NCBI GenBank assembly: GCA_024742285.1
Contig: JANSYR010000012.1
Span: 36,260 to 100,259, forward strand
Direction: 5' to 3'
Origin: a bacterium
Lineage (GTDB): Bacteria > Myxococcota_A > UBA9160 > UBA4427
DNA length: 64,000 nt
Shown here: in pieces, positions 25,859-54,128 of the stretch
Layout: each line of letters begins with the position of its first letter
Position numbering within the stretch: the first letter of the stretch is position 1
Notes under the pieces: generated by a model
What the model was told of the DNA's origin: nothing
Seen by the model: only the letters and a program-made list of their open reading frames with translations
The model's database searches: none
Program-made: the position numbers and the translations under genes

Positions 25859-27046
25859 ATGCCGGGGAACGCCTTGCTGCTCGAGCGCCGCTACCTGCCT
25901 CTCTTCCTCGTGACGTTCACGCTCGCCGTCGGCTATGCGTTCATCTATTCGCTGACCGCCGTGATCCGAAGCCGCTTCGGGATCAGCGAGACGGGGATCG
26001 GTTGGATCGGCGGGATCGGCTTCGCGGCAGGCTTCCTCTCGATGGTGAGCCTCTCGCGCTACGCCGACCGCGGGCACACCCGGGCCATGTTGCGCGCGGG
26101 CGTCGGCCTCGTCCTGCTCGGGAACGTGGGGATGATCTTCGCGTCGGACCTGGCGGGCTTCCTCGCTTCGCGGACGCTCCTCGGACTCGGGGGCGGGCTC
26201 TTCACACCGGCCGTCCGGCGGCTGGTGGTTCTCTCCGACCCGGAGCGCGCGGGCGAACGTCTCGGCGCCATGGCGGCCTTCGACATGGCGGGCTTTCTCG
26301 CCGGTCCGGTCCTCGCGACCTTCTTCTACGAGCTCGGGGGCCTGCGCGCGGCGTTCGCGTCGCTGGCCGGTCTCGCCTTCCTCGTCTCGATTCCGGTCCT
26401 GCGCTTCCGCTTCGAGGAGGCGCCGCAGGTGCTCGGAGACGCGTCCCGCGAGCGACCGATTCGTGACCTTCTCGCACTCGGGCCCGTGCGGGGCGTGGTG
26501 CTCTGCACGATCGCCTTCTACACCACCGTCGGTGTCTTCGAGGCGATCTGGTCGATCTTCCTCGACGATCTGGGCGCGAGCCAGCGATACATCGCGCTGA
26601 CGCTCACGCTCTTCGCGATCCCGATGCTCTTCGTGCCGATCTACGGCGGGCGCCTCGCGCAGCGGCAGGGGCCCCTCCGCGTCGCCGCCTGGAGCGTCGG
26701 CGCGGCGATCCCGTTCATGGCCCTCTACGGCGGGCTCACGGATCTGGCGGCGCTCGGCGTGCTCTGCGTCGTCCACGCGATCGCGGACTCGTTCACGATG
26801 CCGAGCCTCCAGCTCGGGATCGCGCAGGCCGCACCGCGTCGCCACCTCGCGTCCGGGCAGGGGCTCGTCGGCGCGACCGGGCAGGCGGTCGCGGCGGTCA
26901 CCGCGATCGGGTCCGGGACCGTCTACCAGTTCCAGGGTGCGACCGCGCTCTTCACCGGGAGCGCCGCGATCATGCTCGTGCTGCTCGTCGCCGGGCTCTG
27001 GCAGGGACGGACGTTGATGGCGCCGTCCTCGGCAGAGCCCGCGTGA
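25859..27046 (+). CDS. MFS transporter
   Basis: 395 aa, about 12 TM segments, MFS-like loop RTLLGLGGG. Confidence 0.7.
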   Translation: MPGNALLLERRYLPLFLVTFTLAVGYAFIYSLTAVIRSRFGISETGIGWIGGIGFAAGFLSMVSLSRYADRGHTRAMLRAGVGLVLLGNVGMIFASDLAGFLASRTLLGLGGGLFTPAVRRLVVLSDPERAGERLGAMAAFDMAGFLAGPVLATFFYELGGLRAAFASLAGLAFLVSIPVLRFRFEEAPQVLGDASRERPIRDLLALGPVRGVVLCTIAFYTTVGVFEAIWSIFLDDLGASQRYIALTLTLFAIPMLFVPIYGGRLAQRQGPLRVAAWSVGAAIPFMALYGGLTDLAALGVLCVVHAIADSFTMPSLQLGIAQAAPRRHLASGQGLVGATGQAVAAVTAIGSGTVYQFQGATALFTGSAAIMLVLLVAGLWQGRTLMAPSSAEPA

Positions 27047-27053
27047 ATCCGGT

Positions 27054-28508
27054 CTAGCCCTCGAACTGGATCGCGCCGTCCTCGAGCGGGGCGTTCCGGA
27101 TCATCTTCTTGTCGAGGGTGTAGTTCTGGGTGTTCCGCCAGGGACCGCGATCACTCTGCTTCGGGAACAGGTGCATCATGCGCTTCATGTAGCCCGGGTT
27201 GAAGTCGTCGATCCAGTCGAGAGCGGGCATGCCCTCGTCTTCGGGGCGGAGCCGCGGGACGGCGATGGACTTGCCGGTCGCGGCCATGTGGTTGAGCACG
27301 CGGCAGGCGTACTCGCTCGTGATGTCCGCGCGAAGCGTCCAGGAGGCGTTGATGTAGCCGAAGGTCTGGATCAGGTTCGGCACGTCGGAGTACATCATGC
27401 CCTTGTAGCTGAACGTGTCCGGGAACGAGATCGGCGCGCCGTCCTTCGAGAACTCGACGCCGCCGAGGACCTTGAGCTCGAGACCGGTCGCGGTGACGAT
27501 GATGTCGGCCTCGACCTTCTCGCCGGATTCCATCTCGATCCCGTTCTCGGTGAAGCGACTGATGTGGTCGGTCACGACCGAGACCCGACCCTCGCGGATG
27601 CCTTCGTAGAGGTCTCCGTTCGGGATCAGGCAGAGGCGCTGGTCCCACGGGTTGTAGTCGGGGGTGAAGTGCTTCTCGACGTCGTAGTCCGGCCCGAGCT
27701 CTTCGCGGACCATGCCGAGGAGGCGCTCCTTGACCCTCTCGGGCTTCGTGCGCGTCCGGTTGTAGAGGAAGCGCTGGAGCTGGACGTTCTTGAAGCGGGT
27801 GATCGCGTAGGCCCACTTGTTCGGCAGGAACTTCCGGAGCCAGTTCGCGATCGCGTCGCGGTCCGGGCGGGACACGACGTAGGTCGGCGAACGCTGGACC
27901 ATCGTCACATGGGCCGCGTCGTCCGCCATGTTCGGGACGATCGTCATGGCGGTTGCCCCGCTGCCGATCACGGCGACGCGCTTGTCCGTGTAGTCGAGAT
28001 CCTCCGGCCAGAACTGCGGATCGACGATCTGGCCCGCGAACGTGTCCTGACCCTCGAAGTCGGGTCGGTAGCCGCGCTCGTAGTCGTAGTAGCCGGCGCA
28101 CATGAAGAGGAAGTTGCAGGAGAGCTGGACCGTCTCGTCGCCGCCCACCAGGACGTCGAGGGTCCACTTCTTCTCCGCGGTCGACCACGCGGCGGCCTGC
28201 AGGCTGTGGCGGAAGCGGATGTGCTGGCGGACGTCGAACTCGTCGGCGGCCTCGTTCACGTACTCGCGAATCGCGGGGCCGTCGGCGATCGACTTCTCGG
28301 CGACCCAGGGCTTGAAGCTGAAGCCGAGGGTGTGCATGTCGCTGTCCGAGCGGATGCCGGGGTAGCGGAACAGGTCCCAGGTACCGCCGATGGCGTCGCG
28401 GCCTTCGAGGAGGGTGAACGTGCGCTCGGGGCACTTCTCCTGGAGGTGGCAGGCGGCGTCGATACCGGACAGGCCGGCGCCGACGATGACGACGTCGAAA
28501 TGATCCAT
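27054..28508 (-). CDS. Flavin-containing monooxygenase (class B, Baeyer-Villiger-like)
   Basis: VVIVGAGLSGI FAD motif, FxGxxxDxxxWP-like (FAGQIVDPQFWP), second Rossmann motif VAVIGSGATA. Confidence 0.75.
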   Translation of the reverse strand: MDHFDVVIVGAGLSGIDAACHLQEKCPERTFTLLEGRDAIGGTWDLFRYPGIRSDSDMHTLGFSFKPWVAEKSIADGPAIREYVNEAADEFDVRQHIRFRHSLQAAAWSTAEKKWTLDVLVGGDETVQLSCNFLFMCAGYYDYERGYRPDFEGQDTFAGQIVDPQFWPEDLDYTDKRVAVIGSGATAMTIVPNMADDAAHVTMVQRSPTYVVSRPDRDAIANWLRKFLPNKWAYAITRFKNVQLQRFLYNRTRTKPERVKERLLGMVREELGPDYDVEKHFTPDYNPWDQRLCLIPNGDLYEGIREGRVSVVTDHISRFTENGIEMESGEKVEADIIVTATGLELKVLGGVEFSKDGAPISFPDTFSYKGMMYSDVPNLIQTFGYINASWTLRADITSEYACRVLNHMAATGKSIAVPRLRPEDEGMPALDWIDDFNPGYMKRMMHLFPKQSDRGPWRNTQNYTLDKKMIRNAPLEDGAIQFEG

Positions 28509-28681
28509 GGGGTGGGGTCTCCGGCGCGGGCCGCGGGCGGGGCCTCGACGCGGGCGAGAGGGTACCGAAAGGCCAGGCCTACGGTCGGACGCCGGGTTCC
28601 GTTCGCCGGGGGCATCGCTGCGCTGTAAGCTCGCGCCGCGCTCGTCCTTCCGACGCGCGGGAACGAGCCGGAAAGGCCCGC

Positions 28682-29464
28682 ATGTCCTCGCCCCTCGACA
28701 AGTTTCGCCTCGACGGAAAGACGATCGCCGTGACCGGCGCCTCGTCCGGCTTCGGCTCCCACTTCGCCGGCGTGCTCGCGGAGGCGGGTGCCCGGGTCGT
28801 GCTGGGCGCCCGGCGCCTCGAGAAGATCGAGGCCCGCGTGGAGGAGATCCGCGAGGGCGGCGGGGAGGCCCACGGTCTGACGCTCGACGTGAACGACCGC
28901 GCGAGTCTCGAAGGCTTCCTCGACGCGGCCTGGGACCTGGGCGGCCGCCTCGACGTGCTGATCCAGAACGCCGGCGTCGAGGCCGGGGCGAAGACCTTCG
29001 AGACGATCGACGACGACGACTGGGATCGCGTCCTCGACACGAACCTGAAGAGCGCCTGGCGCGGGGCGCAGCGCTACGTCGAGCGCGTCCGGACCCGCGA
29101 GCAGGGGGGAGGCAACATCGTCAACGTCGGCTCGATCACCGCCTTCCGCACGATCAAGGGACAGTTTCCGTATGCCGTCTCGAAGGCGGGTCTCCACAAG
29201 GCGACCGAGGTGCTCGCCCTCGAAGCCGCGCGCTACGGCGTACGCGTGAACACGCTCGCGCCAGGCTACGTCCTGACCGACGTGAGTCGGCTCCTCCTCG
29301 AGGGGCCGACGGCCGACGACTTCGTCAAGGGGATCCCGCAGCGTCGCTACGGCGAGTTCGAGGACCTCGACGGGCCGCTGCTGCTGCTCGCGTCCGACGC
29401 GTCCGCCTACATGACGGGGTCGACCGTCGTCGTCGACGGCGGGCACGTCGTGTCTTCGCTCTAG
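28682..29464 (+). CDS. SDR-family oxidoreductase
   Basis: TGASSGFG, NAG, YAVSKAG catalytic motif. Confidence 0.75.
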   Translation: MSSPLDKFRLDGKTIAVTGASSGFGSHFAGVLAEAGARVVLGARRLEKIEARVEEIREGGGEAHGLTLDVNDRASLEGFLDAAWDLGGRLDVLIQNAGVEAGAKTFETIDDDDWDRVLDTNLKSAWRGAQRYVERVRTREQGGGNIVNVGSITAFRTIKGQFPYAVSKAGLHKATEVLALEAARYGVRVNTLAPGYVLTDVSRLLLEGPTADDFVKGIPQRRYGEFEDLDGPLLLLASDASAYMTGSTVVVDGGHVVSSL

Positions 29465-29476
29465 GCGGAGCCCCGT

Positions 29477-30118
29477 CTAGCGATTCACTTCGACGATCGC
29501 CTTCATCATGTCGGCGAGGTCGTTCGCGACCGAGGGCTTGGCGTCCATCCGCGCGATCCACTCGCCGAGGTTCGTGAGGTCGGGCGAGGGCGCCGCGCCG
29601 AGGGTCGAAGCGAAGAGCGTCGCCAGCCGATAGGTCACGTCCGCCGGATTGAATCGGTCCGCCGCGATCCACTCGCGTCCCTTCAGCTGCGCGTCGAGCG
29701 CGGTGTACTGCTCGGCGAGCGCGCGCTTCGCTTCCTCGATCTCGTCGGCCTCCCCTGCGCCATAGAAGACGTTCGCGATCAGCGTCCATACGTGCGGAAA
29801 GAACACCTCGTCCGCATGCAGCTCCGCCATCCGCACTAGAGCCCGCTCTCCGGGATCCTCCGGAAAGAGCCGCGGCTCGGGCCACTTCTCGTCCAGGTAC
29901 TCGACGATCACCGTCGAGTCCCAGAGCGCGACGTCGCCGTCGACGAAGACGGGGACCTGCGCCTTCGGGTTCAGCTCGAGCACCCTCGGATGCTTCGGCT
30001 CGTAGCCCTGCTTTCCGAACGGGACTTCGACGCGTTCGTAGTCGATGGCCTTCTCTGCGAGGGCGATGCGGACCTTGGCCGTGAAGAGCGAGAGGGGACC
30101 GGAATAGAGGGTGGGCAT
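29477..30118 (-). CDS. Glutathione S-transferase
   Basis: Start at MPTLYSGPLSLFTAKVR with GGAGG RBS; GST N- and C-domain patterns (QVPVFVDGDVALWDSTVIVEYL). Confidence 0.7.
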   Translation of the reverse strand: MPTLYSGPLSLFTAKVRIALAEKAIDYERVEVPFGKQGYEPKHPRVLELNPKAQVPVFVDGDVALWDSTVIVEYLDEKWPEPRLFPEDPGERALVRMAELHADEVFFPHVWTLIANVFYGAGEADEIEEAKRALAEQYTALDAQLKGREWIAADRFNPADVTYRLATLFASTLGAAPSPDLTNLGEWIARMDAKPSVANDLADMMKAIVEVNR

Positions 30119-30315
30119 GGCGACCTCCGGGGTTTGGGCGCAATCGGGAGCATCGAGCAGGCGTCGGGCGCCCGGAAGGGCCAATTGCCGGACGATGTCG
30201 GGCACCAATCTCGTGGAAGGCGGGAGGACGGGCGCGCGATGCCGGCGCGATGCCGATCCGTGTTCGTATCACGGTCGAACTAACAGACTTTATCGGGGAG
30301 AGCGTCGATTTTTCG

Positions 30316-30343
30316 TTGACAGGATCGGGATCGACGATAAATT
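30316..30343 (+). promoter_or_regulatory. Sigma70-like promoter (TTGACA-N16-TAAATT) in an AT-rich patch, bracketed by the inverted repeat CGTCGAT/ATCGACG
   Basis: Read from sequence; an AT-rich patch in a 70% GC genome; it sits 30 nt upstream of a small ORF with a GAGGT RBS. Confidence 0.3.
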
Positions 30344-30372
30344 GCGCCGCCACTCCAGACGAGGTACGAGCC

Positions 30373-30543
30373 ATGTTGGTCTCGCGAACAGGATGGAATC
30401 AGATGCGACGGCAGATGCAGACGGTGTGTCGAGCGGCGTTGGCTTCGAACGGCGGCGAATTCGCCGGGTTCGAGAGCCATATCGGCTCACTCCGCTTCGG
30501 CCTGGCTGATTCGGAATCCGACCTCGTCTCGCTCGCGCCCTAG
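30373..30543 (+). CDS. Hypothetical small protein (56 aa)
   Basis: ATG with a GAGGT RBS 8 nt upstream, downstream of the promoter-like element. No similarity recognised; this could also be part of a non-coding leader. Confidence 0.2.
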   Translation: MLVSRTGWNQMRRQMQTVCRAALASNGGEFAGFESHIGSLRFGLADSESDLVSLAP

Positions 30544-30744
30544 CAAGAGCGCTTCGAGCGAGATCGGCTAGGACGGACTTCGTCTGACGAGGTTCGCCGC
30601 GGGGATTCCCTTCCTCGCCCGAGCGCCTGGCTCTGAGGCGTCGCGACGTCGCGTCGCGCCCATGGACGACCGCGTCAGCGAATCGACCCGCGGACGCCGT
30701 GCGGGATCGTTGCGCCCGGGAAGGGATTCCTGCGCGCACGGACC

Positions 30745-30832
30745 GCGAACGACGATGGCGGATCTGGTTCAACGGGAGAACGCCGGAATGTGACTCCGGA
30801 GATGTCGGGTTCGATTCCCACGGTTCGCACCA
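30745..30832 (+). tRNA. tRNA-like element, degenerate (His-like anticodon arm CCGGA-AUGUGAC-UCCGG, T-loop GGGTTCGATTCCC, ends ACCA)
   Basis: Folded by eye: the 3' half resembles tRNA-His (anticodon GTG, T-arm, acceptor, ACCA), but the 5' half is 12 nt too long and the T-stem has mismatches. Possible pseudo-tRNA. Confidence 0.25.
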
Positions 30833-30985
30833 CTTTCACGGATGAACTCGCAGATAGAGGAGAGATCCGAAAACGAGCATCGCGAATGCGATCGGTCACC
30901 AGCGGAGTCGGTTCTGTATGCCGACCCGGGGCGAGGGAGTTCGTTCTCCCCGCGTCTACCGGGGCCCCTCGCGCGCGACGCACCA

Positions 30986-31059
30986 GCGTGGATAGCTCAG
31001 CAGGTGAGAGCAACGGACGCAGAATCCGTAGGCCGCAGGTTCGATTCCTGCTCCATTCG
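30986..31059 (+). tRNA. tRNA-like element / probable pseudo-tRNA (D-arm TAGCTCAGCAGGTGAGAGC, anticodon stem ACGGA/TCCGT, T-arm GCAGGTTCGATTCCTGC)
   Basis: Full cloverleaf geometry of 73 nt, but G at position 33 of the anticodon loop (loop cgCAGaa) and two non-Watson-Crick acceptor pairs. No CCA. Confidence 0.3.
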
Positions 31060-31079
31060 CTTCTTTACCCGAAGCACCC

Positions 31080-31123
31080 CTGGTTGGTCCGAGAGGATCG
31101 GGGTTCGACTCCCCACAGCCGGC
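31080..31123 (+). tRNA. Partial tRNA 3' fragment (T-arm CGGGGTTCGACTCCCC plus acceptor 3' strand); possible att-site remnant
   Basis: T-loop consensus GGTTCGACTCC followed by a 7 nt acceptor-like strand; no D or anticodon arm; the preceding 18 nt weakly resemble the antisense of the tRNA-Pro 3' end. Confidence 0.25.
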
Positions 31124-31484
31124 CGGGCATCCGGCCCCAACAGAAGCGCGAGGCCCTCTCGCCCTTCGAGACGTCGACGACGCGCCCCGGCACGTCCGAG
31201 ACGAATCGATCGGCAGCGCGGAGGACGCCCTGAGCGCTGGCCCCTGTGGCGCGCCCGGAGTGTGGACGAAGGGCCGCCGCGATCGACTTCGCCCTTGCGG
31301 CGACGTGTCTCCCGACCCGTCGCCGCGAGAACGCGCGGGTCGACTCGCCGCGACTGCGGGAGAGATGTTCCCGGTGCGCGCAAGCCAGCGACCGCCCCTC
31401 CACGTGGAGGGCCTCGCCGAGGGTTCCCGGGACGCGAACTTCGCGCCCGGAACGAACGAGAGAGAAGGAACGGAGGTAGACGAC

Positions 31485-32636
31485 ATGTGGATGATCAAGA
31501 CCGTCGCCGTCGCCGAGCACGAGCGAGCGCTCCTGTTCCGCGATGGTCGCTTCGAACGGGTCCTGGGCCCGGGCCGACACCGCGTCGTGTCGATCCGCCC
31601 GAGCGCGCGGATTCGCGTCGACGAGTTCGACCTGACCGATCTGGTCTTCGTGCACCCGCTCGCGGACTTCCTCGTGAACACGTACCCGAAGCTTCGGGAG
31701 GACGTGTTCGAGGTCGTCGAGACCGGGGACGCCGAAGTCGCGGTCGTGCGAGCCGATGGCCAGGTCCACGAAGTCGTGGCGCCGGCCTCTCGCCGGATCT
31801 TCTGGCGCGGTGCGTACCGGGTCGACGTCGAGCGCTTCGACATCGCCGAGACCTTCGAGGTCGTGGGCGACGTGGCGAGCCTGATCCGTCAGCTCGCGCT
31901 CGTCGACCGTACGGCCCTCGCCGCAGCGATCAGCTTCGACGAGGTCCCGGAAGGCGAGGTCGGCCTGCTCTTCGTCGACGGTCAGCTCGACCGGGTCCTG
32001 GATCCGGGTCCGCACGCGTTCTGGAAGTTCAACCGGACGCTGCGGGTCTTCCGGGTTCCGACGCGGCTCCAGACCGTCGAGGTCACTGGTCAGGAGATCC
32101 TGTCGAAGGACAAGGTCTCCCTGCGGCTGAACCTGACCGCGAGCTACCGGGTTCGCGATCCGGTCGAGGCCTACCGGGCGACCACGAACTACGGCGACTT
32201 TCTCTACAAGGAGCTGCAGTTCGGTCTGCGCGAGGTGGTCGGAGGGCGAACGCTCGACGAGATCCTCGCCGAAAAGGAAGTGCTCAACGAGGCCATCGAG
32301 GCGCGCGTCCGCGACCGCGTCGTGGACTACGGACTCGATCTCGTGAGCATCGGTGTGAAGGACATCGTCCTCCCCGGTGAGATGAAGGCCATCCTGAATC
32401 AGGTGGTCGAAGCGGAGAAGGTCGCCCAGGCGAACCTGATCCGACGCCGGGAGGAGACCGCGGCGACGCGGTCGCTCCACAACACCGCCCGGATGCTGGA
32501 ACAGAGCCCGCTCCTGGTTCGGCTCAAGGAGCTCGAGGCGCTCGAGAAGGTCACCGAGCGGGTGGGTTCGCTCACCGTTCTGGGTGGTCTCGAGGGCGTG
32601 CTCGACGGACTCGTGAAGATCCGGAAGGACGAGTGA
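31485..32636 (+). CDS. SPFH/band-7 (stomatin/prohibitin/HflC-like) domain protein with an N-terminal partial internal duplication
   Basis: ATG 31485 with GGAGG RBS. C-terminal two-thirds is canonical SPFH (SKDKVSLRLNLTASYRVRDPVEAY...LDEILAEKEVLNEAIEARV...VSIGVKDIVLPGEMKAILNQVVEAEK). The N-terminal ERALLFRDGRFERVLGPGRHRV repeats EVGLLFVDGQLDRVLDPGPHAF. Confidence 0.75.
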   Translation: MWMIKTVAVAEHERALLFRDGRFERVLGPGRHRVVSIRPSARIRVDEFDLTDLVFVHPLADFLVNTYPKLREDVFEVVETGDAEVAVVRADGQVHEVVAPASRRIFWRGAYRVDVERFDIAETFEVVGDVASLIRQLALVDRTALAAAISFDEVPEGEVGLLFVDGQLDRVLDPGPHAFWKFNRTLRVFRVPTRLQTVEVTGQEILSKDKVSLRLNLTASYRVRDPVEAYRATTNYGDFLYKELQFGLREVVGGRTLDEILAEKEVLNEAIEARVRDRVVDYGLDLVSIGVKDIVLPGEMKAILNQVVEAEKVAQANLIRRREETAATRSLHNTARMLEQSPLLVRLKELEALEKVTERVGSLTVLGGLEGVLDGLVKIRKDE

Positions 32637-32688
32637 CGCAGGTCGTTCTCCTTCCTCGGAATCGGGATCGATCGCGGGTCCACCGGAC

Positions 32689-32719
32689 GGCCCGGTCCTG
32701 CTTCGTGCAGGGCCGGGCC
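32689..32719 (+). terminator. Strong hairpin (13 bp stem, UUCGU loop) between the SPFH and PcfJ-like genes; terminator or attenuator-like, no U-tract
   Basis: GGCCCGGTCCTGC-TTCGT-GCAGGGCCGGGCC read from sequence (one G-U pair). Confidence 0.3.
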
Positions 32720-32800
32720 CATTCGGGGCGCAGTCCACGCGCCCCGGAACGAACGATCGATTCGCGCGGAACGTGATCCCGCGCTGGAACGGATGAACAC

Positions 32801-34270
32801 GTGGCCACTCGAGCCCGGGTCGCGGCGCCGCGACCTCCGCAGGAGGTCCCGCTCCGCGTACAGAAGCATTTGCGTCGTCTCGGCCTGTACACCGGTGAGG
32901 ACTACCTCCGCTGGTGCATGCGCCGGGGGTTCGCGGCGTCCTATCGAAAGACCTGGGATGCGCTCGAAGAGGAGTGGTCCGCGCACGGTCGCGAGATCGC
33001 GCAGGCACAGTCTCGTCTCAAGGTCGATCGGGATCCGGCGAAGCTGATCGCACGTGTGTGCGAAGGAAAGCTCCGGCCGCGGGACATCGCGCGGCCCCGC
33101 TGGCGCGCGCTCGCGGAGCGGATCGATGCCCAGCCGATGACCGCGCGGCAGACCCGCGCCCTCCGTCGGCTCGTGGAAGTCGTTCTGAAGCGCGGTCGAC
33201 TCCTCCTCGCGGAGGGGGAGGTCGGTGGCGATCGACTTCCGTATCTCGACGCGCTGATCGTGCTGGCGCAGAACCACCGGCACTGGGTTCGGAAGCCCGT
33301 CGACTGGCACCCGCGCACGCACAACGCCGAACGTCAGCTCGCTTCGCTGATCCGCCATCTGATTGCGAGGTATCCGGTGCCCGCGTTCATGGACGCCGCC
33401 TGGCTTCGGTCCGGCGAAACGGCGCTTGCGTATCGACGGTGGTACCGCGCGATCGGTCGCGGAGAGAATCTGCGTCACCAGGAAGGGCCGATCCCCTGGA
33501 CGAACCGGATCGTGCACTGGTTCCTGAAGGCGCCGGCGCATCTCTCCATCGAGGCGGCCATTCGCTGGGGACAGGTCCGCGCCGAAGGCGGGAACGAAGC
33601 GCTGGCCCGCGCGATCGTCGCGTCCAGGATCGGCCGGAACTTCGAACACGACGCCTTCTGGGTCACGGTGATCCGATTCCTCGTCCTTCACGACTGGATC
33701 CTCCCTCGCGCCGTCGGTCCCATCATCGACTATCTGCACCACCAGAGGTTCGTCGTCGTCGAGGCCTTCGAGGCGCCCGGCGTGCGAGCCCCCGCGCGCC
33801 CCGCGCAGCCCAACCTGACGATGCGAGGCCGGTCTCCCTTCGCACTCCTGCGGGAGGTCGAGCGGTGGCACCGCGACCTGGCCAGGACGCCGACGCGTGG
33901 ACCGATCTCCTGGCCCGGTTCGGGCATCCGCGAGTTCTCCCAGGAAACGGGCATCAAGGGACGCACGCTCCAGGTCTGGCTCATCCGCGAGCTCCGCTCC
34001 GCCGCGGCGCTCCACGCCGAGGGCGCACGCATGCGCCACTGCGTCGCGACCTACGTTCCTGAGTGCCGCGACGGCGACTGCTCCATCTGGACGATGGAGC
34101 GCCACTCCTTCGAAGGCATCGACGCCCGGGTGACGATCGAAGTCAACCGTGAGGGCGAGATCGTCGAAGTGCGCGGCAAGGCGAACCGTGAGCCGTCCGA
34201 GCGGGAGCTCGAGGTGATCCGCTCGTGGGCCGCGCGCGAGCGGCTTCAGCTCGCGCCCATCATCGGCTGA
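32801..34270 (+). CDS. PcfJ-like protein (plasmid/mobile-element-associated family of unknown function)
   Basis: C-terminal LHAEGARMRHCVATYVPECRDGDCSIWTMER matches the EGxxMxHCVxxY signature I recall for the PcfJ-like family (PF14284). GTG start at 32801; start uncertain. Confidence 0.5.
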   Translation: MATRARVAAPRPPQEVPLRVQKHLRRLGLYTGEDYLRWCMRRGFAASYRKTWDALEEEWSAHGREIAQAQSRLKVDRDPAKLIARVCEGKLRPRDIARPRWRALAERIDAQPMTARQTRALRRLVEVVLKRGRLLLAEGEVGGDRLPYLDALIVLAQNHRHWVRKPVDWHPRTHNAERQLASLIRHLIARYPVPAFMDAAWLRSGETALAYRRWYRAIGRGENLRHQEGPIPWTNRIVHWFLKAPAHLSIEAAIRWGQVRAEGGNEALARAIVASRIGRNFEHDAFWVTVIRFLVLHDWILPRAVGPIIDYLHHQRFVVVEAFEAPGVRAPARPAQPNLTMRGRSPFALLREVERWHRDLARTPTRGPISWPGSGIREFSQETGIKGRTLQVWLIRELRSAAALHAEGARMRHCVATYVPECRDGDCSIWTMERHSFEGIDARVTIEVNREGEIVEVRGKANREPSERELEVIRSWAARERLQLAPIIG

Positions 34271-34365
34271 GCCGCTTCGCCGATCGATCGCGACCCCAGG
34301 CGGTGAGCCCGGCTCCGCGTCGGAACCGGGAGGCAGAGCGTCGGGTACCGGACGACCACCCGAGT

Positions 34366-34454
34366 CGCCTGGTCGGGACTTCCGCAGCGAACCCAGCTCG
34401 GTCGCCATGCCGCAATAGAAGCCGCCTGGTCGCGACGTCTGCGACGAACCCAGC
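34366..34454. repeat. Two degenerate direct copies (32 bp each, 57 bp apart) of the 3' terminal region of the adjacent tRNA-Pro
   Basis: R1 CGCCTGGTCGGGACTTCCGCAGCGAACCCAGC (34366-34397) and R2 CGCCTGGTCGCGACGTCTGCGACGAACCCAGC (34423-34454) against the tRNA-Pro 3' end in the same orientation, TGGTCGGGGCGACTGGATTTGAACCAGC. Confidence 0.5.
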
Positions 34455-34475
34455 AGAATGCGGATATCGCAAAAA

Positions 34476-34552
<77 letters not shown>

Positions 34553-34592
34553 ACCGAGCGCCGGAGTATACGGGCTCCGACGCGGCCCTCAA

Positions 34593-34630
34593 GCGCAAAA
34601 GAGCGGCTTTTCGGGCCTGAAACGGCGCTC
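34593..34630 (-). terminator. Rho-independent terminator downstream of rpe (minus strand)
   Basis: Minus-strand GAGCGCC-GUUUCAGGCCCGAAAA-GCCGCUC followed by UUUUGCGCUU. Confidence 0.5.
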
Positions 34631-34682
34631 AGGGGCGTTTCACCGGTGGGCCGCCGGGCCCGTCCGCGCGCCCGCTCGGACG

Positions 34683-35393
34683 CTACTGGACGGCGGCCTG
34701 GGCCTTCTTCCGGAGGTCGTCGATCGCCTTCTTGCGGTCGTCCTCGATGAAGACCGAGGTCCCGGCGACGAAGCTGTTGGCGCCGGCGGCGGCGGCGCTC
34801 GCGATGTTGCTGGCCTTCACGCCGCCGTCGACCTGGAGGTCGATCTCGAGCCCACGCGATTCGATCCAGCCGCGGATCTTCTCGATCTTTGGCAGCATCG
34901 CTTCGATGAACGACTGACCGCCGAAGCCCGGGTTCACGGTCATCACCAGGATCTGGTCCGCCTCGTCGAGGCAGTACTCGACGGCTTCGGCCGGGGTCGA
35001 CGGGTTGAGCACGGCGCAGGATCGGACGGGCGAGGTCCGCTCGCCGTCCTTCATGCGCGCTTCGCCGATCCGGCGGATCTGGCCGAGGGTGCCGTGGAGG
35101 TGGGGGCAGGCTTCGGCGTGGACGCCCAGGATGTCGGCGCCTGCGTCGATGTAGTGCTCGAGATAGGTCTCGGGGGACTCGATCATCAGGTGGACGTCGA
35201 GGGGCGACTTCGCAGCGCCCTTGATCGCCTCGACGACCGGCGGGCCGATCGTCAGGTTCGGCACGAAGTGGCCGTCCATCACGTCGACGTGGACGAGCTC
35301 GGCGCTCTCGATCGTGGCGAGCTCCTTGGCCATGTTGACGAAGTCGGCGGCCAGGATGGACGGCGAGATCTTGATGTCTTTGCGGGTGCTCAA
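34683..35393 (-). CDS. rpe: Ribulose-phosphate 3-epimerase
   Basis: ISPSILAADF...HVDVMDGHFVPNLT...HLM...MTVNPGFGGQ are canonical Rpe motifs. Confidence 0.85.
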   Translation of the reverse strand: MSTRKDIKISPSILAADFVNMAKELATIESAELVHVDVMDGHFVPNLTIGPPVVEAIKGAAKSPLDVHLMIESPETYLEHYIDAGADILGVHAEACPHLHGTLGQIRRIGEARMKDGERTSPVRSCAVLNPSTPAEAVEYCLDEADQILVMTVNPGFGGQSFIEAMLPKIEKIRGWIESRGLEIDLQVDGGVKASNIASAAAAGANSFVAGTSVFIEDDRKKAIDDLRKKAQAAVQ

Positions 35394-35404
35394 GGGCGTC
35401 TCCG

Positions 35405-36877
35405 TCAGTCTTCCTTGCGCGGGTTTCGGATCAGTCGGACGGCGAAGAAGCCGTCCATGTCCCGGGTTCCGTCGAGGTCGGGGCGATTCGGCATGTGGGG
35501 GAGGACGCGGAAGAAGCCGTCCTCGTCGATCAGCTCACGGAGGGCTTCGGGCGCCTCGTCGCGGCCCGCGATCCGCCAGTTCGCGCGGGTCGCCATGAAG
35601 CCCCGGATCACCGCCTCGTTCTCTTCCGGGGTGACCGTGCACGTAGAGTAGACGAGGCTCCCGCCCGGCCTCAATACGGCCGCCGCCGCTTCGAGGATCT
35701 CGCGCTGGACCCGGGCCAGGTCTTCGAGGTCCTCGGGGCGCAGACGCCAACGGGCGTCCGGGTTGCGGCGCATCGAGCCGAGCCCCGAGCAGGGCGCGTC
35801 GATCAGGATCTTGTCGAAGGGCCCACCCTCGGAAGCGAGCTCCTCCATCGGCTTCGTCGCGTCGCGCTCGAGGGTCGCCACGCCGCCCACGCCGAGCCGG
35901 CGGATCCCGCGACCGACCAGGCGCAGCCTGCGCGCGTGGCGATCGAGGGCGAGGACGTGGCCGTCGCCGTCCAGGCGCTCGGCGATCGCCGCGCTCTTGG
36001 TTCCGGGCGCCGCGCACGTGTCGAGGACGCGATCGCCGGGCTGCGGATCGAGCAGCTCGACGACGAGCTGGGAGGCCTCGTCCTGGGGGCTCACCCGCCC
36101 CGCGACGAAGGCGGGGTCCTGGCCGACGTCGCCGCGACGACCCAGGACGATCGCGTCCGGCGAGTATCGTCCTGGGCGCGCGTCGGGGTGGCGTTCGCGC
36201 AGGTCGGCGAGGGCTTCCGCGCGGGGGGTCTTCGTGCGGTTCACGCGAACCGTGACCGGCGCCGGCTCGTTCATCGCGACCGCGAGCTTCGCCGCGTCCT
36301 CCGCGCCGTATTGCTCGAGCCAACGTTCCGCGAGCCACTCGGGCAGGGAGCAGGCGTGGACGAGATGGCCCATCGGGTCGGCCTCGAGGTCCGGGAACGC
36401 GTAGCCCTCGCCCTCGCGCGCCAGGCGTCGTAGCACCGCGTTCACGAAGCCCGTCGCGCGCTCGAGGCCCATCGCGCGCACGCAGCGCACGGCTTCGTCG
36501 ACGGCGGCGTTCGCCGGAATCCGATCCGAGAAGAAGAGTTGGTAGGCGCCGACGCGCAGCGCGCTGATCACGAGGGGCTCGAGCTTCGCGAGGTCCCGGT
36601 CGAGGGCCTGCTGGATCAGGTAGTCGAGACGCCCGCGCCAGCGGAGGGTGCCGTAGACGAGCTCGGTGGCGAGGCCGCGATCCGCCGCGGGCATGCGGCT
36701 CTGGACGAGGGCGTGATGGAGCGCGAGGTCCGCGTAGGCCCCTGCGCGCTGGACGCGTTCGACGACGCGGATCGCGATGAGTCGCGGCGCGGTCGGGCCC
36801 GCGGTCTTCTTCGGCGCGTCCTTCTTGCGTCCGGGCCAGCGCTTTCCGCGACCGCCCTTCTTGCGATCGTCGCTCAC
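35405..36877 (-). CDS. rsmB: 16S rRNA (cytosine967-C5)-methyltransferase RsmB/Sun
   Basis: N-terminal NusB-like region, SAM motif VLDTCAAPGTKS, catalytic DAPCSG...YSTCT; conserved def-fmt-rsmB neighbourhood. Confidence 0.8.
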   Translation of the reverse strand: MSDDRKKGGRGKRWPGRKKDAPKKTAGPTAPRLIAIRVVERVQRAGAYADLALHHALVQSRMPAADRGLATELVYGTLRWRGRLDYLIQQALDRDLAKLEPLVISALRVGAYQLFFSDRIPANAAVDEAVRCVRAMGLERATGFVNAVLRRLAREGEGYAFPDLEADPMGHLVHACSLPEWLAERWLEQYGAEDAAKLAVAMNEPAPVTVRVNRTKTPRAEALADLRERHPDARPGRYSPDAIVLGRRGDVGQDPAFVAGRVSPQDEASQLVVELLDPQPGDRVLDTCAAPGTKSAAIAERLDGDGHVLALDRHARRLRLVGRGIRRLGVGGVATLERDATKPMEELASEGGPFDKILIDAPCSGLGSMRRNPDARWRLRPEDLEDLARVQREILEAAAAVLRPGGSLVYSTCTVTPEENEAVIRGFMATRANWRIAGRDEAPEALRELIDEDGFFRVLPHMPNRPDLDGTRDMDGFFAVRLIRNPRKED

Positions 36878-37875
36878 GAGGCGTCTCCTTCGTCTTCGGT
36901 GGGATGTGGCACGATCGCCAGACGCGCCCCGTCCGGGATCTCGAATCCGCGCAGGAAGTCGGCGACCTCGAGCGGCTTGCCGCCGGGACGCTGCATCACG
37001 CGGGGGACGAGCCAGCCGTCGCCCGTCGCGATCCGGAGCGGCGCAGTCCCATCGCTCGTGTCGAGGGTCCCGGGGATCGCGCCCTCGCCGGTCGCCGGCT
37101 GCGACGACGCGCGCGAGATCTTGAGGAGGACAGGCTCGGCGCCCTCGGCCTCGAGGGTGACGGCGCCCCCCGGCTTCGGGGAGACGGCGTGGATCCGCGC
37201 GACGAGGGCGCGGGCCGGATCGCGGAGGTCGAGGACCGAGTCATGCTTCTCGATCTTCGCCGCCAGGGTCGCCTTCGACGCGTCCTGCTCGGTCCAGGCG
37301 ACGGTCCCCTCGGCGATCTGGTCGAGGGCTTCGCCGATCGCGCTCGCGGCGAGCTCCGCGAGTCGCGTGGTCAGCTCCGCCGCGTTCTCGTCCTCGGCGA
37401 CCGGCGTCTTCGCGACCAGCGCGACGGCTCCGGCGTCCATCTCCTTCTCGACGCGCATGACCGAGATCCCGGTCTCGTCTTCGCCGTCGAGGATCGCCCG
37501 AGCGATGGGCGCCGCGCCGCGGTACTTCGGGAGCAGGCTCGCGTGCGCGTTGATCAGGTAGCCCTCGGTCGGGAGCTCCCGGACCCTCTTGGGGATGAAC
37601 TGGCCGAAGGCCACGACGACGCCCACGTCGGGTCGCAGGGCGTCGAGGGCCGCGACCGTTTCCGCGTCTCCGACCTTCTCGGGGCGCAGCAGGGGCAGGG
37701 CCTCGCGGAGGGCGACCTCGGAGACCGGCGAGGGCGAGCGCTTGCGGCCGCGACCGCGACCGCGGTCCGGCTGGGAGACGATGCCGACGACCTCGTGCGG
37801 CCCGGCGAGCAACGCCTCGAGCGTCGCCACCGCGATGTCCGGGGTGCCGAAGAAGACGACGCGGAGGCGGCGCAT
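36874..37875 (-). CDS. fmt: Methionyl-tRNA formyltransferase
   Basis: RVVFFGTPD...NAHASLLPKYRGAAPI; synteny with def. Confidence 0.85.
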   Translation of the reverse strand: MRRLRVVFFGTPDIAVATLEALLAGPHEVVGIVSQPDRGRGRGRKRSPSPVSEVALREALPLLRPEKVGDAETVAALDALRPDVGVVVAFGQFIPKRVRELPTEGYLINAHASLLPKYRGAAPIARAILDGEDETGISVMRVEKEMDAGAVALVAKTPVAEDENAAELTTRLAELAASAIGEALDQIAEGTVAWTEQDASKATLAAKIEKHDSVLDLRDPARALVARIHAVSPKPGGAVTLEAEGAEPVLLKISRASSQPATGEGAIPGTLDTSDGTAPLRIATGDGWLVPRVMQRPGGKPLEVADFLRGFEIPDGARLAIVPHPTEDEGDAS

Positions 37876-37914
37876 GGCTTCAGGACCGATCTGCCGGGAG
37901 GCGGCGGCGCAAAC

Positions 37915-38433: not shown

Positions 38434-38598
38434 GGGTCGCTCGTGTGGGTCCTGTGGAAAGAGGGGGACGGGCGGCGCGGCGGGTCGCCCGTAGCCTATC
38501 GGCCGTTCCGGGAAAGGCGCGGAAACGGGCGCGGAGAGGGCGCTCGCGGATCGGCTGCCTGGCCGCAACTCCGCGGTTCCGCTGCGAAAACGGCGGCT

Positions 38599-54009: not shown

Positions 54010-54128
54010 CAGAGCATTGACCGCAGGGCGGTCCACTCGCAGCCAGGCCCTGCTACGGCTGCTTCCTTCCGGACCTGACCGGGTTCACAGGATCCCGAAC
54101 TCGAACGGGACCCTGCGGTCAACGCTCG
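54010..54128 (-). ncRNA. ffs: Signal recognition particle RNA (4.5S / SRP RNA)
   Basis: Minus strand has the invariant domain IV motif GGUCAGGUCCGGAAGGAAGCAGCC closed by a 12 bp terminal helix UUGACCGCAGGG/CCCUGCGGUCAA; sits directly upstream of dnaX-ybaB-recR, the conserved ffs location. Confidence 0.65.

What the first reader, a model, noticed from the sequence alone, without database searches (positions are those of the whole stretch)
30745..31123. Cluster of three tRNA-like fragments in a long non-coding stretch
Within 380 bp there are three T-arm consensus motifs (GGGTTCGATTCCC, CAGGTTCGATTCCTG, GGGGTTCGACTCCCC), each embedded in a partial or imperfect cloverleaf. Element A has a His-like anticodon arm (GTG) and ends ACCA, but its 5' half is too long. 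Element B has a complete 73 nt cloverleaf but G33 and acceptor mismatches. Element C is only a T-arm plus a 3' acceptor strand. None folds as a clean canonical tRNA by eye. Pseudo-tRNAs and tRNA fragments mark integrative-element junctions and could also serve as decoys or processing signals.
Basis: seen in the sequence. Interest (0 to 1): 0.6.

Follow-up and report, generated by a model that had tools for sequence, protein, structure and literature searches.

The report
tRNA mimics upstream of SPFH gene
The three "tRNA fragments" are not junk or junction scars: they are a leftover tRNA-His from a mobile tRNA array, a non-decoding tRNA mimic (the predicted "band-7-associated tRNA") and a conserved half-tRNA-like hairpin pair, all apparently in one operon with an SPFH/Band-7 gene that in other bacteria sits in RNA-repair loci.

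Summary
The three T-arm motifs are real and non-random. Element A (30758-30832) is a normal-length tRNA-His(GUG) that passes ARAGORN and Rfam; its odd bulged T-stem and A73 are shared with orthologs, and its acceptor stem shows pairing-preserving changes. Element B (30986-31060) is the ortholog of a tRNA-like gene found 150-520 nt upstream of this SPFH/Band-7 gene family in 49 of 63 loci. Its cloverleaf covaries strongly, but its anticodon loop varies freely in sequence and length, its outer acceptor pairs are mostly unpaired, and CCA is usually absent. This matches the "b7a-tRNA" predicted by Burroughs and Aravind (2016). Element C (31086-31114) is a conserved, covarying short hairpin plus T-arm, not a T-arm plus acceptor strand. 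A 268-nt covarying leader follows it. A conserved sigma-70-like promoter (30316-30343) suggests one transcript running through SPFH and a PcfJ-like gene. The whole 4.2-kb segment is an insertion beside tRNA-Pro that is absent from the closest relative. Related loci carry 10-22-gene tRNA arrays, and 32 of 85 carry RtcB. The best reading is a reduced, ligase-less variant of the Band-7/tRNA-mimic RNA-repair module. The mechanism (RNA partner of SPFH) is inferred, not shown.

The parts
30142..34322 (.). Segment of about 4.2 kb inserted between the GST gene and tRNA-Pro, relative to relative L003. It holds all parts listed below except tRNA-Pro.
   Evidence: blastn synteny: w25878-30141 = L003 17102-12807 and w34474-38442 = L003 12440-8425. 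w34323-34378 still aligns with the L003 intergenic region. No relative has His or B-like tRNAs beyond tRNA-Pro.
30316..30343 (+). Sigma-70-like promoter TTGACA-16 nt-TAAATT, the likely start of the transcription unit.
   Evidence: 10 of 12 consensus matches; 2 sites found in 4.5 kb against 0.3 expected. Both hexamers are conserved in L084, L085 and L156. No terminator-like site on the + strand before SPFH.
30758..30832 (+). Element A: tRNA-His(GUG) with encoded G-1 (30757), A73 and CCA. It is the last survivor of a long tRNA array.
   Evidence: ARAGORN and Rfam, 51.4 bits. The bulged T-stem GUCGGG/CCCAC is shared with L084, L156, L089, L100 and L083. Three acceptor-stem changes between W and L084 all keep pairing. 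The same position (-653 from the SPFH ATG) is held by the His gene of L084/L156 (-658).
30899..30929 (+). Conserved spacer hairpin (core GTCGG-loop-CCGAC, 30907-30925). This is what relaxed ARAGORN called 'tRNA-Thr(TGT)'.
   Evidence: Conserved in W, L084, L156, L089, L083 and L100, with a compensatory change GTCGG/CCGAC to GCCGG/CCGGC. It scores only 3.4 bits against the tRNA-like model, so it is not a tRNA. Relaxed call.
30986..31060 (+). Element B: band-7-associated tRNA mimic (b7a-tRNA type). Anticodon loop CGCAGAA (G33), weak outer acceptor stem, no CCA.
   Evidence: Rfam tRNA 57.4 bits. Ortholog of the terminal tRNA-like gene in L078/L085, L080, L081, L083, L084 and others. Cloverleaf 92% paired against 33-45% in slid controls, 0/500 shuffles. 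Scores 75.2 bits on the family model.
31059..31075 (+). Anticodon-arm-like hairpin (GCTTC-TTTACCC-GAAGC): 5-bp stem with a 7-nt loop.
   Evidence: Helix 1 of alignment A4 is 97.8% paired, with compensatory changes in 5 of 5 pairs. In most loci the loop reads CUNNNAA.
31086..31114 (+). Element C: short hairpin (GGTCC-GAGA-GGATC) followed directly by a T-arm (GGGG-TTCGACT-CCCC).
   Evidence: RNAalifold recovers both hairpins. The T-stem covaries (GGGG/CCCC, GTGG/CCAC, GCGG/CCGC). The whole module is 89% paired against 39-52% slid, 0/500 shuffles. Local T-arm hit of 10.3 bits. Present in 14 aligned loci, deleted in L083.
31121..31136 (+). GC hairpin GGCCGG-GCAT-CCGGCC.
   Evidence: Read directly from the sequence. 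Similar hairpins are seen in L084/L156 and L092.
31149..31416 (+). Structured leader domain of 268 nt, closed by an 11-bp long-range helix (31149-31159 with 31406-31416) around a rod of nested helices.
   Evidence: RNAalifold on 12 loci. 94.2% paired against 34-48% slid; 18 pairs with compensatory changes; 0/500 shuffles on all five measures. Coordinates. No Rfam match.
31428..31450 (+). Covarying hairpin just upstream of the SPFH ribosome-binding site.
   Evidence: Helix 8 of A7: 6 of 8 pairs show compensatory changes.
31485..32636 (+). SPFH/Band-7 (slipin-like) protein, 383 aa.
   Evidence: Pfam Band_7, E = 7e-37. Homologs in 85 loci; 32 of these also have RtcB, 16 RtcA and 12 RtcR.
32801..34270 (+). 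PcfJ-like protein, 489 aa.
34476..34552 (-). Housekeeping tRNA-Pro(CGG). This is the conserved landmark beside which the segment is inserted; it is not part of the module.
   Evidence: ARAGORN and Rfam, 65.7 bits. Conserved after rsmB-rpe in 20 of the 24 related loci scanned.

Best explanation
The 'long non-coding stretch' is the RNA half of a horizontally acquired module: promoter, leader, tRNA-His (A), spacer hairpin, tRNA mimic (B), anticodon-arm-like hairpin, short hairpin plus T-arm (C), a 268-nt structured leader, SPFH/Band-7, and a PcfJ-like gene.

- A is the last remaining gene of a long, mobile tRNA array (an 'L-array'). It is still under selection for tRNA structure.
- B is a member of the band-7-associated tRNA-like RNA class (b7a-tRNA). 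It keeps the tRNA body (D-arm, anticodon stem, T-arm, inner acceptor stem). It has a free-running anticodon loop and a weak acceptor end, so it is most likely not a decoder.
- C is a conserved partial tRNA-like element, not a fragment left by recombination.

How it most likely works (inferred, not shown): the unit is transcribed as one RNA from the promoter at 30316-30343. The tRNA-shaped parts are recognised by tRNA-processing enzymes (RNase P and RNase Z), which release tRNA-His and the mimic. The mimic, possibly together with C and the rod-like leader, serves as the RNA partner of the SPFH protein. This would resemble the way Y RNA and YrlA partner Ro60/Rsr in rtc operons. It would act in a response to tRNA damage, which in many relatives also includes RtcB/RtcA ligation and a spare set of tRNAs. 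The window's copy is a reduced version: one array tRNA, no ligase, and PcfJ as the second protein.

My confidence is about 0.85 in the identity and homology claims and about 0.35 in the specific partner-RNA mechanism.
For: Shown:
- A and B pass tRNA models.
- The segment is an insertion next to tRNA-Pro.
- PcfJ homologs always follow a Band_7 gene. Upstream of that gene are 1 to 18 same-strand tRNA genes ending with a His gene and a terminal odd tRNA.
- In 49 of 63 SPFH loci with at least 500 nt upstream, a tRNA-like gene ends 150-520 nt before the ATG. These 49 plus the window's B give 27 different 'anticodon' calls among 50 elements.
- 11 loci have at least 10 upstream tRNAs.
- B aligns base for base with these terminal elements.
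- B's cloverleaf is 92% paired against 33-45% slid, 0/500 shuffles, with compensatory changes in all 5 anticodon-stem pairs.
- The outer acceptor pairs are paired in only 36-64% of sequences. 8 of 44 loops are 4-6 nt long. U33 is present in 24 of 36 seven-nt loops. The anticodon triplet has 1.8 bits of entropy against 0.47 for the D- and T-arms.
- C and the hairpin before it covary, and so does the leader.
- A's unusual features are shared with orthologs, and its acceptor-stem changes preserve pairing.
- The promoter is conserved, and there is no + strand terminator before SPFH.
- RtcB, RtcA and RtcR co-occur with this SPFH family.

From the literature:
- A 'band 7-associated tRNA' next to Band-7 and RtcB was predicted by Burroughs and Aravind 2016, as summarised in 10.1101/312249.
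- L-arrays are horizontally transferred, and their neighbourhoods are enriched in RNA-repair genes (PMC8421152).
Against: - There is no expression or processing data for any element.
- There is no evidence that SPFH binds RNA.
- The window has no rtcB, rtcA or rtcR, so the link to repair is by homology of the SPFH family only.
- 14 of 63 loci lack an ARAGORN-detectable mimic at the expected distance.
- In several clades the mimic has a perfectly canonical anticodon loop, for example CUCAUAA or CUGAUAA. Those copies could be decoders or specific target mimics.
- My family model does not cleanly separate mimics (73-84 bits) from the best array tRNAs (up to 73 bits). Membership therefore rests largely on position and alignment.
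- The leader structure was predicted from the same 12 sequences used to test it.
- The original b7a-tRNA paper could not be read here.
Confidence: 0.7

Rival explanations
1. Anticodon-nuclease decoy or sentinel. B, and the extra tRNA-like copies in other loci, would be bait substrates that soak up or report tRNA-cleaving toxins such as colicins, PrrC or VapC-type enzymes. The variable anticodon loop would reflect an arms race with those nucleases. The cleaved bait would be held by SPFH and resealed by RtcB, or its fragments would signal to RtcR.
For: - The anticodon triplet is the most variable paired-or-loop part of an otherwise highly conserved RNA.
- Many copies keep a canonical 7-nt loop with U33 and A37 and anticodons of known nuclease targets (CAU, CUU/UUU, GAU).
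- One clade has three tandem mimics between RtcR and SPFH-RtcB-RtcA.
- RtcR is activated by damaged tRNA fragments, and a competitive-inhibitor role was proposed for the YrlA tRNA-like domain (PMC7790460).
- The L-array paper suggests array tRNAs may act as 'sponges' for toxin RNases.
Against: - In the window's own subclade the loop is non-canonical (G33 in W, L084, L085 and L092; 6-nt loops in L080 and L083). That would make a poor mimic of a real anticodon loop.
- The variability is equally explained by lack of constraint.
- No nuclease gene lies in the window's module.
- PADLOC finds no defence family for either protein.
Confidence: 0.2
2. Processing punctuation only. B and C would exist to recruit RNase P and RNase Z so that the array or leader RNA is cut away from the SPFH-PcfJ mRNA, as tRNA-like elements do for some long transcripts. 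The released RNAs would have no function of their own.
For: - B and C sit exactly between the tRNA genes and the mRNA, on one predicted transcript with no terminator.
- The acceptor and T-arm features that these enzymes read are the best conserved.
- C often ends in ACCA.
Against: - B is present where there is no upstream array to separate (L085, L102-L105, L145-L163).
- The D-stem is invariant and the anticodon stem covaries in all 5 pairs. That is more than a cleavage signal needs.
- The outer acceptor stem, which RNase P uses, is the least conserved helix.
Confidence: 0.15
3. Ordinary decoding tRNAs. A would be a working tRNA-His. B would be a working, if unusual, class-I tRNA reading CUG, perhaps charged with Ala through G3.U70.
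For: - Both pass Rfam and ARAGORN.
- 23 of 26 L-array tRNAs in Anabaena are aminoacylated (PMC8421152).
- A has G-1, GUG and CCA and is structurally maintained, so A itself may well be chargeable.
- B has G3.U70.
Against: For B:
- G33.
- A C2.U71 mismatch.
- No CCA, while every array tRNA encodes one.
- The ortholog in the closest relative (84% SPFH identity) reads UUG, not CAG. Orthologs show 27 different anticodon calls and 4-6-nt loops.

For A:
- A73 instead of the bacterial His determinant C73.
Confidence: 0.07
4. Recombination scars. The elements would be pseudo-tRNAs and tRNA fragments left at the junction of an integrative element.
For: - The segment is an insertion beside tRNA-Pro in a variable hotspot.
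- tRNA-Pro 3'-end-like repeats lie next to it.
Against: - There is no duplicate of A, B or C in the window.
- There is no direct repeat at the borders and no integrase in the insert.
- All three elements are conserved with covariation across distant loci.
Confidence: 0.03

Closest known systems
b7a-tRNA (band 7-associated tRNA-like RNA) predicted by Burroughs and Aravind, NAR 2016, as summarised in Wang et al. 2018 (10.1101/312249)
   Same: A tRNA-like gene immediately upstream of, and on the same strand as, a Band-7/SPFH gene. The same SPFH family sits next to RtcB, RtcA and RtcR in many loci.
   Different: - The window's copy has no RNA ligase nearby and is followed by a PcfJ-like gene.
- It is accompanied by a surviving array tRNA-His, a second partial tRNA-like element (C) and a 268-nt structured leader.
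- I could not read the original paper, so I cannot say which of these extras it already describes.
[quoted passage not shown]
   Same: Relatives of this module carry 10-22 closely spaced same-strand tRNA genes with encoded CCA. They are patchily distributed and lie next to RNA-repair genes. A is homologous to the His member of those arrays.
   Different: - In the window the array is reduced to one gene.
- The published description (cyanobacteria) does not mention SPFH, PcfJ or a terminal tRNA mimic.
Y RNAs and YrlA with Ro60/Rsr in rsr-yrlBA-rtcBA operons (Chen et al. 2014, PMC4201824; Wang et al. 2018)
   Same: An operon-encoded non-coding RNA with a tRNA-like domain next to a putative scaffold protein in RNA-repair neighbourhoods. 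The leader's long rod of nested helices is superficially like a Y RNA stem.
   Different: - There is no Rfam Y RNA or other hit.
- The protein partner is SPFH, not Ro60.
- B is a full cloverleaf rather than a tRNA-like module embedded in a stem.
tRNA-gene att sites and tRNA fragments at integrative-element junctions
   Same: The module lies in an insertion beside tRNA-Pro.
   Different: The tRNA-like elements are not duplicated tRNA ends, and they are conserved as structured RNAs elsewhere.

Membership tests
b7a-tRNA (band-7-associated tRNA-like RNA) | Sequence folds as a tRNA-like cloverleaf | tested here: met
   Rfam tRNA 57.4 bits; ARAGORN call. Family cloverleaf 92% paired with covariation.
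b7a-tRNA (band-7-associated tRNA-like RNA) | Encoded directly upstream of a Band-7/SPFH gene on the same strand | tested here: met
   B ends 425 nt before the ATG of a Pfam Band_7 protein. The same arrangement is found in 49 of 63 loci.
b7a-tRNA (band-7-associated tRNA-like RNA) | Homology to the tRNA-like genes at that position in other genomes | tested here: met
   Aligns throughout with the terminal elements of L078/L085, L080, L081, L083 and L084. Scores 75.2 bits on the family model, within the family range of 73-84. The model does not fully exclude ordinary tRNAs.
b7a-tRNA (band-7-associated tRNA-like RNA) | Neighbourhood contains the RtcB RNA ligase | tested here: not met
   No RtcB, RtcA or RtcR anywhere in the 64-kb window. 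The feature is met in 32 of 85 loci of the same SPFH family.
b7a-tRNA (band-7-associated tRNA-like RNA) | Exists as a stable RNA and acts with the Band-7 protein | not testable with these tools
   No expression data. The class had not been validated experimentally as of 2018.
Canonical elongator tRNA (for B) | U33 and a 7-nt anticodon loop with an anticodon conserved among orthologs | tested here: not met
   B has G33. The 50 terminal elements (49 loci plus the window's B) give 27 anticodon calls, and 8 of 44 aligned loops are 4-6 nt.
Canonical elongator tRNA (for B) | Seven paired acceptor positions and a CCA end (encoded in this module's true tRNAs) | tested here: not met
   C2.U71 mismatch and no CCA in B. 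The outer three pairs are paired in 36-64% of family members. Array tRNAs all encode CCA.
Bacterial tRNA-His (for A) | GUG anticodon, cloverleaf, encoded G-1 | tested here: met
   G precedes every array His gene.
Bacterial tRNA-His (for A) | C73 discriminator pairing with G-1 | tested here: not met
   A73 in W, L084 and L156 (also L090 and L097). Most array His genes have C73.
Bacterial tRNA-His (for A) | Charged by HisRS and used in translation | not testable with these tools
   Needs aminoacylation assays. The rest of the source genome's tRNA set is not available.
L-array (long horizontally transferred tRNA array) | Many (up to 43) closely spaced same-strand tRNA genes | tested here: not met
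   Only A and B in the window. The feature is met in 11 related loci with at least 10 genes. The window is a remnant.
L-array (long horizontally transferred tRNA array) | Patchy distribution, or acquisition, relative to close relatives | tested here: met
   Absent from L003 and the other relatives at this site.
Y RNA / YrlA | Match to the Rfam Y RNA-type models | tested here: not met
   No Rfam hit in the region other than tRNA.
Y RNA / YrlA | An adjacent Ro60/Rsr (TROVE) gene | not tested
   The genes flanking the region carry GST, Band_7 and PcfJ Pfam domains, but a TROVE/Ro60 gene was not searched for across the window.
Integrative-element att junction | Direct repeat of a tRNA 3' end at both borders, and an integrase | tested here: not met
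   No such repeat. The insert encodes only SPFH and PcfJ.
tmRNA (including two-piece forms) | ARAGORN or Rfam tmRNA model match | tested here: not met
   None at default settings. Only a spurious low-threshold call was returned.

The most novel reading that the evidence does not exclude
The module could be an undescribed ribonucleoprotein system for tRNA surveillance. In this reading a soluble SPFH assembly and a GNAT-like PcfJ protein work with three co-transcribed structured RNAs:
- a tRNA mimic whose anticodon loop is free to vary (or is driven to vary);
- a 'half tRNA' (anticodon-arm-like hairpin, short hairpin, T-arm, ACCA);
- a 268-nt rod-like RNA.

The attached long tRNA arrays would serve as a spare tRNA set. 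The mimic would work as bait for, or sensor of, anticodon-loop nucleases, not as a passive scaffold.
Probability: 0.2. Interest if true: 0.8.

Novelty: new variant of a known kind. Interest (0 to 1): 0.55.

Why it matters
- It resolves an apparent pile of broken tRNAs into a conserved, multi-part RNA module.
- It links two literatures that are treated separately: horizontally transferred long tRNA arrays, and Band-7/tRNA-mimic RNA-repair operons.
- It adds testable features to a class of tRNA mimic that has only been predicted: a free-running anticodon loop, a weak acceptor end, a second partial tRNA-like element and a large covarying leader.
- It points to tractable organisms for experiments. 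P. aeruginosa PA14 has an SPFH gene in its rtc locus. About 30% of complete E. coli genomes carry a homologous slipin island with an unannotated T-arm upstream.
- For annotation: automatic tools will label B as 'tRNA-Leu(CAG)' and its orthologs as a different tRNA in each genome. That inflates and distorts tRNA inventories.

Tried and rejected
- tmRNA or two-piece tmRNA for C: no ARAGORN or Rfam support.
- C as a copy of another tRNA's 3' end, or as an att repeat: it is unique in the window with up to 3 mismatches allowed, and no border direct repeats were found.
- A fourth tRNA, 'Thr(TGT)' at 30879-30957, from relaxed ARAGORN: rejected. It scores 3.4 bits on the tRNA-like model, and the conserved part is a simple hairpin.
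- Small ORFs called upstream of the arrays (and the window ORF at 30250-30543): their translations are not conserved. The conservation lies in the promoter DNA.
- A viral origin: a B-specific pattern finds nothing in IMG/VR, and the SPFH protein has no match in phage records.
- Defence-system assignment: no PADLOC hit.
- Reading the original b7a-tRNA paper: it is not held under the ids I tried, and later papers add nothing on this RNA.
- A closing 'TGG/CCA' stem around C: only 71% paired, so I left it as uncertain.
Full report
**Observation.** The core GGTTCRANTCC occurs four times in the window against 0.37 expected from shuffles. Three of those lie within 305 nt on the + strand, and the fourth is the tRNA-Pro at 34476-34552.

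ARAGORN and Rfam both call element A as a 75-nt tRNA-His(GUG) at 30758-30832 (51.4 bits). Both call element B as a class-I tRNA at 30986-31059/60 (57.4 bits; ARAGORN labels it 'Leu(CAG)'). The Rfam threshold is 29 bits. Element C gets no hit from Rfam even at E of 10 or less, and none from default ARAGORN. With my own model it matches only as an isolated T-arm (10.3 bits, E about 0.013).

**Setting.** The window is 69% G+C. Frame-specific GC3 and Pfam place the elements in a gene-free stretch of about 1.36 kb. The gene order is:
- a GST-like gene (29477-30118, minus strand);
- the non-coding stretch with A, B and C;
- an SPFH/Band-7 gene (31485-32636, plus strand);
- a PcfJ-like gene (32801-34270, plus strand);
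- tRNA-Pro(CGG) on the minus strand;
- the core genes rpe, rsmB and fmt.

A scan of species-representative genomes with RsmB shows that the source is an uncultured Myxococcota lineage (L001-L021, 73-93% RsmB identity).

**The segment is an insertion.** In L003, the closest relative with a long contig, window 25878-30141 and 34474-38442 align to adjacent DNA only about 366 bp apart. Only 34323-34378 of the intervening window sequence finds a counterpart there. No relative has a His or B-like tRNA within about 9 kb beyond tRNA-Pro. L004 holds 7.3 kb of unrelated DNA at this spot, and several contigs end at tRNA-Pro. So about 4.2 kb (30142-~34322) was gained next to tRNA-Pro.

It carries no integrase. 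No direct repeats mark its ends. The GC3 of its two genes (0.82-0.83) is slightly below that of its neighbours (0.86-0.92).

**The module is conserved elsewhere.** Homologs of the PcfJ-like protein reach at best 60-63% identity. In every contig I fetched they follow a Band_7 gene, which is itself preceded by a gene-free gap of 1-2.5 kb. Those gaps hold same-strand tRNA genes: 18 in L080, 16 in L081, 6 in L083 and 1 in L078. In L083 the module sits between RtcR-RtcB-RtcA and RlaP-RlaP-Pnkp/Hen1.

A metagenome scan with an SPFH alignment returned 80 more loci.
- Of 63 loci with at least 500 nt upstream, 49 have a plus-strand tRNA-like gene ending 150-520 nt before the SPFH start.
- 11 loci have at least 10 upstream tRNA genes, and 10 more have 4-9.
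- tblastn finds RtcB in 32 of 85 SPFH loci, RtcA in 16 and RtcR in 12. PcfJ lies directly downstream only in the window's subclade.
- The window itself has no rtc gene.

**Element A.** The array His genes all have G at -1, and most have C73. W, L084 and L156 have A73. The T-stem GUCGGG...CCCAC, with one bulged base, is shared by W, L084, L156, L089, L100 and (as GUUGGG) L083. It is therefore a lineage feature, not decay.

Between W and L084 (84% SPFH identity) the 5' acceptor strand differs at three positions: G4 to A, A5 to G and U6 to C. The 3' strand is unchanged, and all seven pairs remain standard or G.U. The D-stem GUUC/GAAC differs from the usual GCUC/GAGC on both sides. A occupies the same position as in L084/L156: -653 against -658 from the ATG. 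A is therefore a structurally maintained tRNA-His, the last member of an array that has 16-22 genes in related loci. Whether it is charged is unknown.

**Spacer.** Relaxed ARAGORN proposed a 'tRNA-Thr(TGT)' at 30879-30957. It scores only 3.4 bits on the tRNA-like model. What is conserved there is a hairpin (core 30907-30925) with a compensatory change, GTCGG/CCGAC to GCCGG/CCGGC.

**Element B.** B aligns throughout with the terminal tRNA-like gene of the other loci. On 44 such elements:
- the cloverleaf is 92% paired against 33-45% when the 3' partners are slid, and no shuffle of 500 reached it;
- the D-stem is invariant;
- the anticodon stem is 98% paired, with compensatory changes in all five pairs;
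- the T-stem is 100% paired;
- the four inner acceptor pairs are 91-100% paired, but the outer three only 36%, 52% and 64%.

The anticodon triplet has 1.8 bits of entropy per column. That is as much as the unpaired outer acceptor positions, against 0.47 bits for the D- and T-arms. Eight of 44 loops are 4-6 nt long, and U33 is present in only 24 of 36 seven-nt loops. The 49 loci plus the window's B give 27 different anticodon calls among 50 elements. The closest relative reads UUG where the window reads CAG. Array tRNAs all encode CCA, but B and most orthologs do not.

B scores 75.2 bits on a model built from the family (family range 73-84), against 43.1 for A and 59.2 for tRNA-Pro. Some array tRNAs reach 73 bits, so the model alone is not diagnostic.

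**Element C and its neighbours.** Directly after B comes a hairpin with a 5-bp stem and a 7-nt loop (31059-31075). In most loci the loop reads CUNNNAA, like an anticodon loop. The stem is 97.8% paired, with compensatory changes in all five pairs.

C itself (31086-31114) is a short hairpin joined to a T-arm. RNAalifold recovers both. The T-stem covaries (GGGG/CCCC, GTGG/CCAC, GCGG/CCGC), and the T-loop GGTTCGAnTCC is invariant. The four helices together are 89% paired against 39-52% slid, with 0 of 500 shuffles reaching that. In most loci the T-arm is followed by ACCA; the window has ACAG. A possible TGG/CCA closing stem is only 71% paired. Other clades replace C with a different conserved motif, GGTCGAAAGACCACCGCCGAACG. 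L083 has lost C.

**Leader.** Between C and the SPFH ribosome-binding site, RNAalifold on 12 loci predicts a 268-nt domain (31149-31416). It is closed by an 11-bp helix, 31149-31159 with 31406-31416, around a rod of nested helices. A further hairpin lies at 31428-31450. The structure is 94.2% paired against 34-48% slid. Eighteen pairs show compensatory changes, and no shuffle reached the observed value on any of the five measures. The caveat is that the structure was derived from the same sequences. Rfam has no match.

**One transcription unit.** A TTGACA-16-TAAATT site (10 of 12 matches) lies at 30316-30343. Its hexamers are invariant or nearly so in L084, L085 and L156. No terminator-like site occurs on the plus strand before SPFH. 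The small ORFs that gene callers place here are not conserved as proteins.

**Proteins.**
- The SPFH protein has a Band_7 domain at residues 153-324 and matches HflK/HflC models only far below their cut-offs. By eye it has no N-terminal hydrophobic segment; I did not test this.
- PcfJ has no PADLOC, NCBIfam or PDB sequence match.

**Comparison with the literature.**
- Wang et al. (10.1101/312249) summarise the prediction of Burroughs and Aravind (2016). [quoted passage not shown] It had not been validated experimentally. B fits this by fold, position and homology. The window lacks the ligase. The original paper is not in the library. From memory, its abstract names SPFH/Band-7 modules with 'a novel tRNA-like molecule' as potential scaffolding cofactors, parallel to Ro/Y RNA.
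- Santamaria-Gomez et al. (PMC8421152) define horizontally transferred 'L-arrays' of up to 43 tRNA genes. Their neighbourhoods are enriched in RNA-processing genes, including rtcB and hen1-pnkP. The authors suggest that array tRNAs may act as sponges for toxin RNases. They do not mention SPFH or PcfJ.
- Hughes et al. (PMC7790460) show that RtcR responds to damaged tRNA fragments. They propose that a tRNA-like domain might inhibit an anticodon nuclease.
- P. aeruginosa PA14_60630 is an SPFH gene inside the rtc locus (PMC13086221).

**Interpretation.** What is shown:
- homology and covariation of A, B, C and the leader;
- the status of the segment as an insertion;
- the association of this SPFH family with tRNA arrays and rtc genes.

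What is inferred:
- co-transcription;
- processing by tRNA enzymes;
- a partner-RNA role for B (with C and the leader) with SPFH.

I favour the partner-RNA reading because selection acts on the tRNA body while the anticodon loop is unconstrained, and in the window's subclade non-canonical. The decoy or sentinel reading is the main rival. It is favoured by the clades with canonical loops and by the tandem mimics next to RtcR. The readings as pure processing signals, as ordinary decoders, and as junction scars are less likely, for the reasons given under each rival.

**Novelty and limits.** The core (a tRNA mimic plus Band-7) is a known, purely computational prediction. Several features appear not to be described in the papers I could read:
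- the link to L-arrays;
- the PcfJ partner without a ligase;
- the quantified freedom of the anticodon loop;
- element C;
- the structured leader.

I could not check these against the original 2016 paper. All functional statements lack experimental support, and the source organism is an uncultured MAG.

Noticed in passing
L001 8230-8403; window 34332-34475: Directly beyond the 3' end of tRNA-Pro, relatives carry tandem 56-nt units (3.1 copies in L001). Each contains ...TTCCCGACCA, which resembles the tRNA-Pro 3' end GCCCCGACCA. The window keeps about 2.5 diverged units, and L003 keeps one. They may be reiterated attachment-site-like sequences at an integration hotspot.
   Followed up: partly
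L164 4687-4827 (E. coli CP061233); L165 (NZ_CP012380 4473553-4476968): About 1629 of 5426 complete E. coli genomes have an island between yjbD and lysC: slipin (43% identical to the window's SPFH), a nucleotidyltransferase and a zeta toxin. Upstream of slipin no RNA is annotated, but there is a sigma-54-like TGGCACgcttcTCGCA followed by a lone T-arm, UGGGUUCGAUUCCCA (12.1 bits). This may be a divergent counterpart of B or C in a tractable organism.
   Followed up: partly
L080 2623-2699; L081 2918-2994; L083 3836-3912: The arrays contain 77-nt, class-I-sized 'tRNA-Leu' genes (anticodons CAG or UAG, U33, A73, CCA) that lack the long variable arm of bacterial tRNA-Leu.
   Followed up: no
L145-L163 (for example L147 3595-3806): A low-GC clade has three tandem tRNA-like genes between a divergent RtcR and SPFH-RtcB-RtcA. 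Some have the anticodon UUA ('Stop') or shortened loops.
   Followed up: partly
L090 3463-3535 and 3536-3610: Two b7a-type mimics lie in direct tandem, with different anticodon loops (78.5 and 79.1 bits).
   Followed up: no
window 30114-30125 and 34400-34411: A 12-nt perfect inverted repeat (GGCATGGCGACC / GGTCGCCATGCC) brackets the inserted segment. The left copy overlaps the GST start codon, in DNA shared with L003. It may be chance.
   Followed up: no
window 30344-30757: About 400 nt between the promoter and tRNA-His are conserved with L084/L156 (77% identity over 30310-32722). A block at 30345-30401 is also conserved in L085. Its function is unknown. It is not a tRNA remnant according to the model.
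   Followed up: partly
[not shown]
   Followed up: partly
L005 12449-12577: A weak, over-long tRNA-model hit (29.9 bits over 129 nt) lies immediately after tRNA-Pro in one relative.
   Followed up: no
window 54019-54117 (-): An ordinary bacterial small SRP RNA (57.7 bits).
   Followed up: no
L108, L115, L118-L121, L127, L133, L141, L144, L148 (about 20-50 nt after the mimic): In these clades element C is replaced by a different conserved motif, GGTCGAAAGACCACC(C)GCCGAACG, after the anticodon-arm-like hairpin.
   Followed up: no
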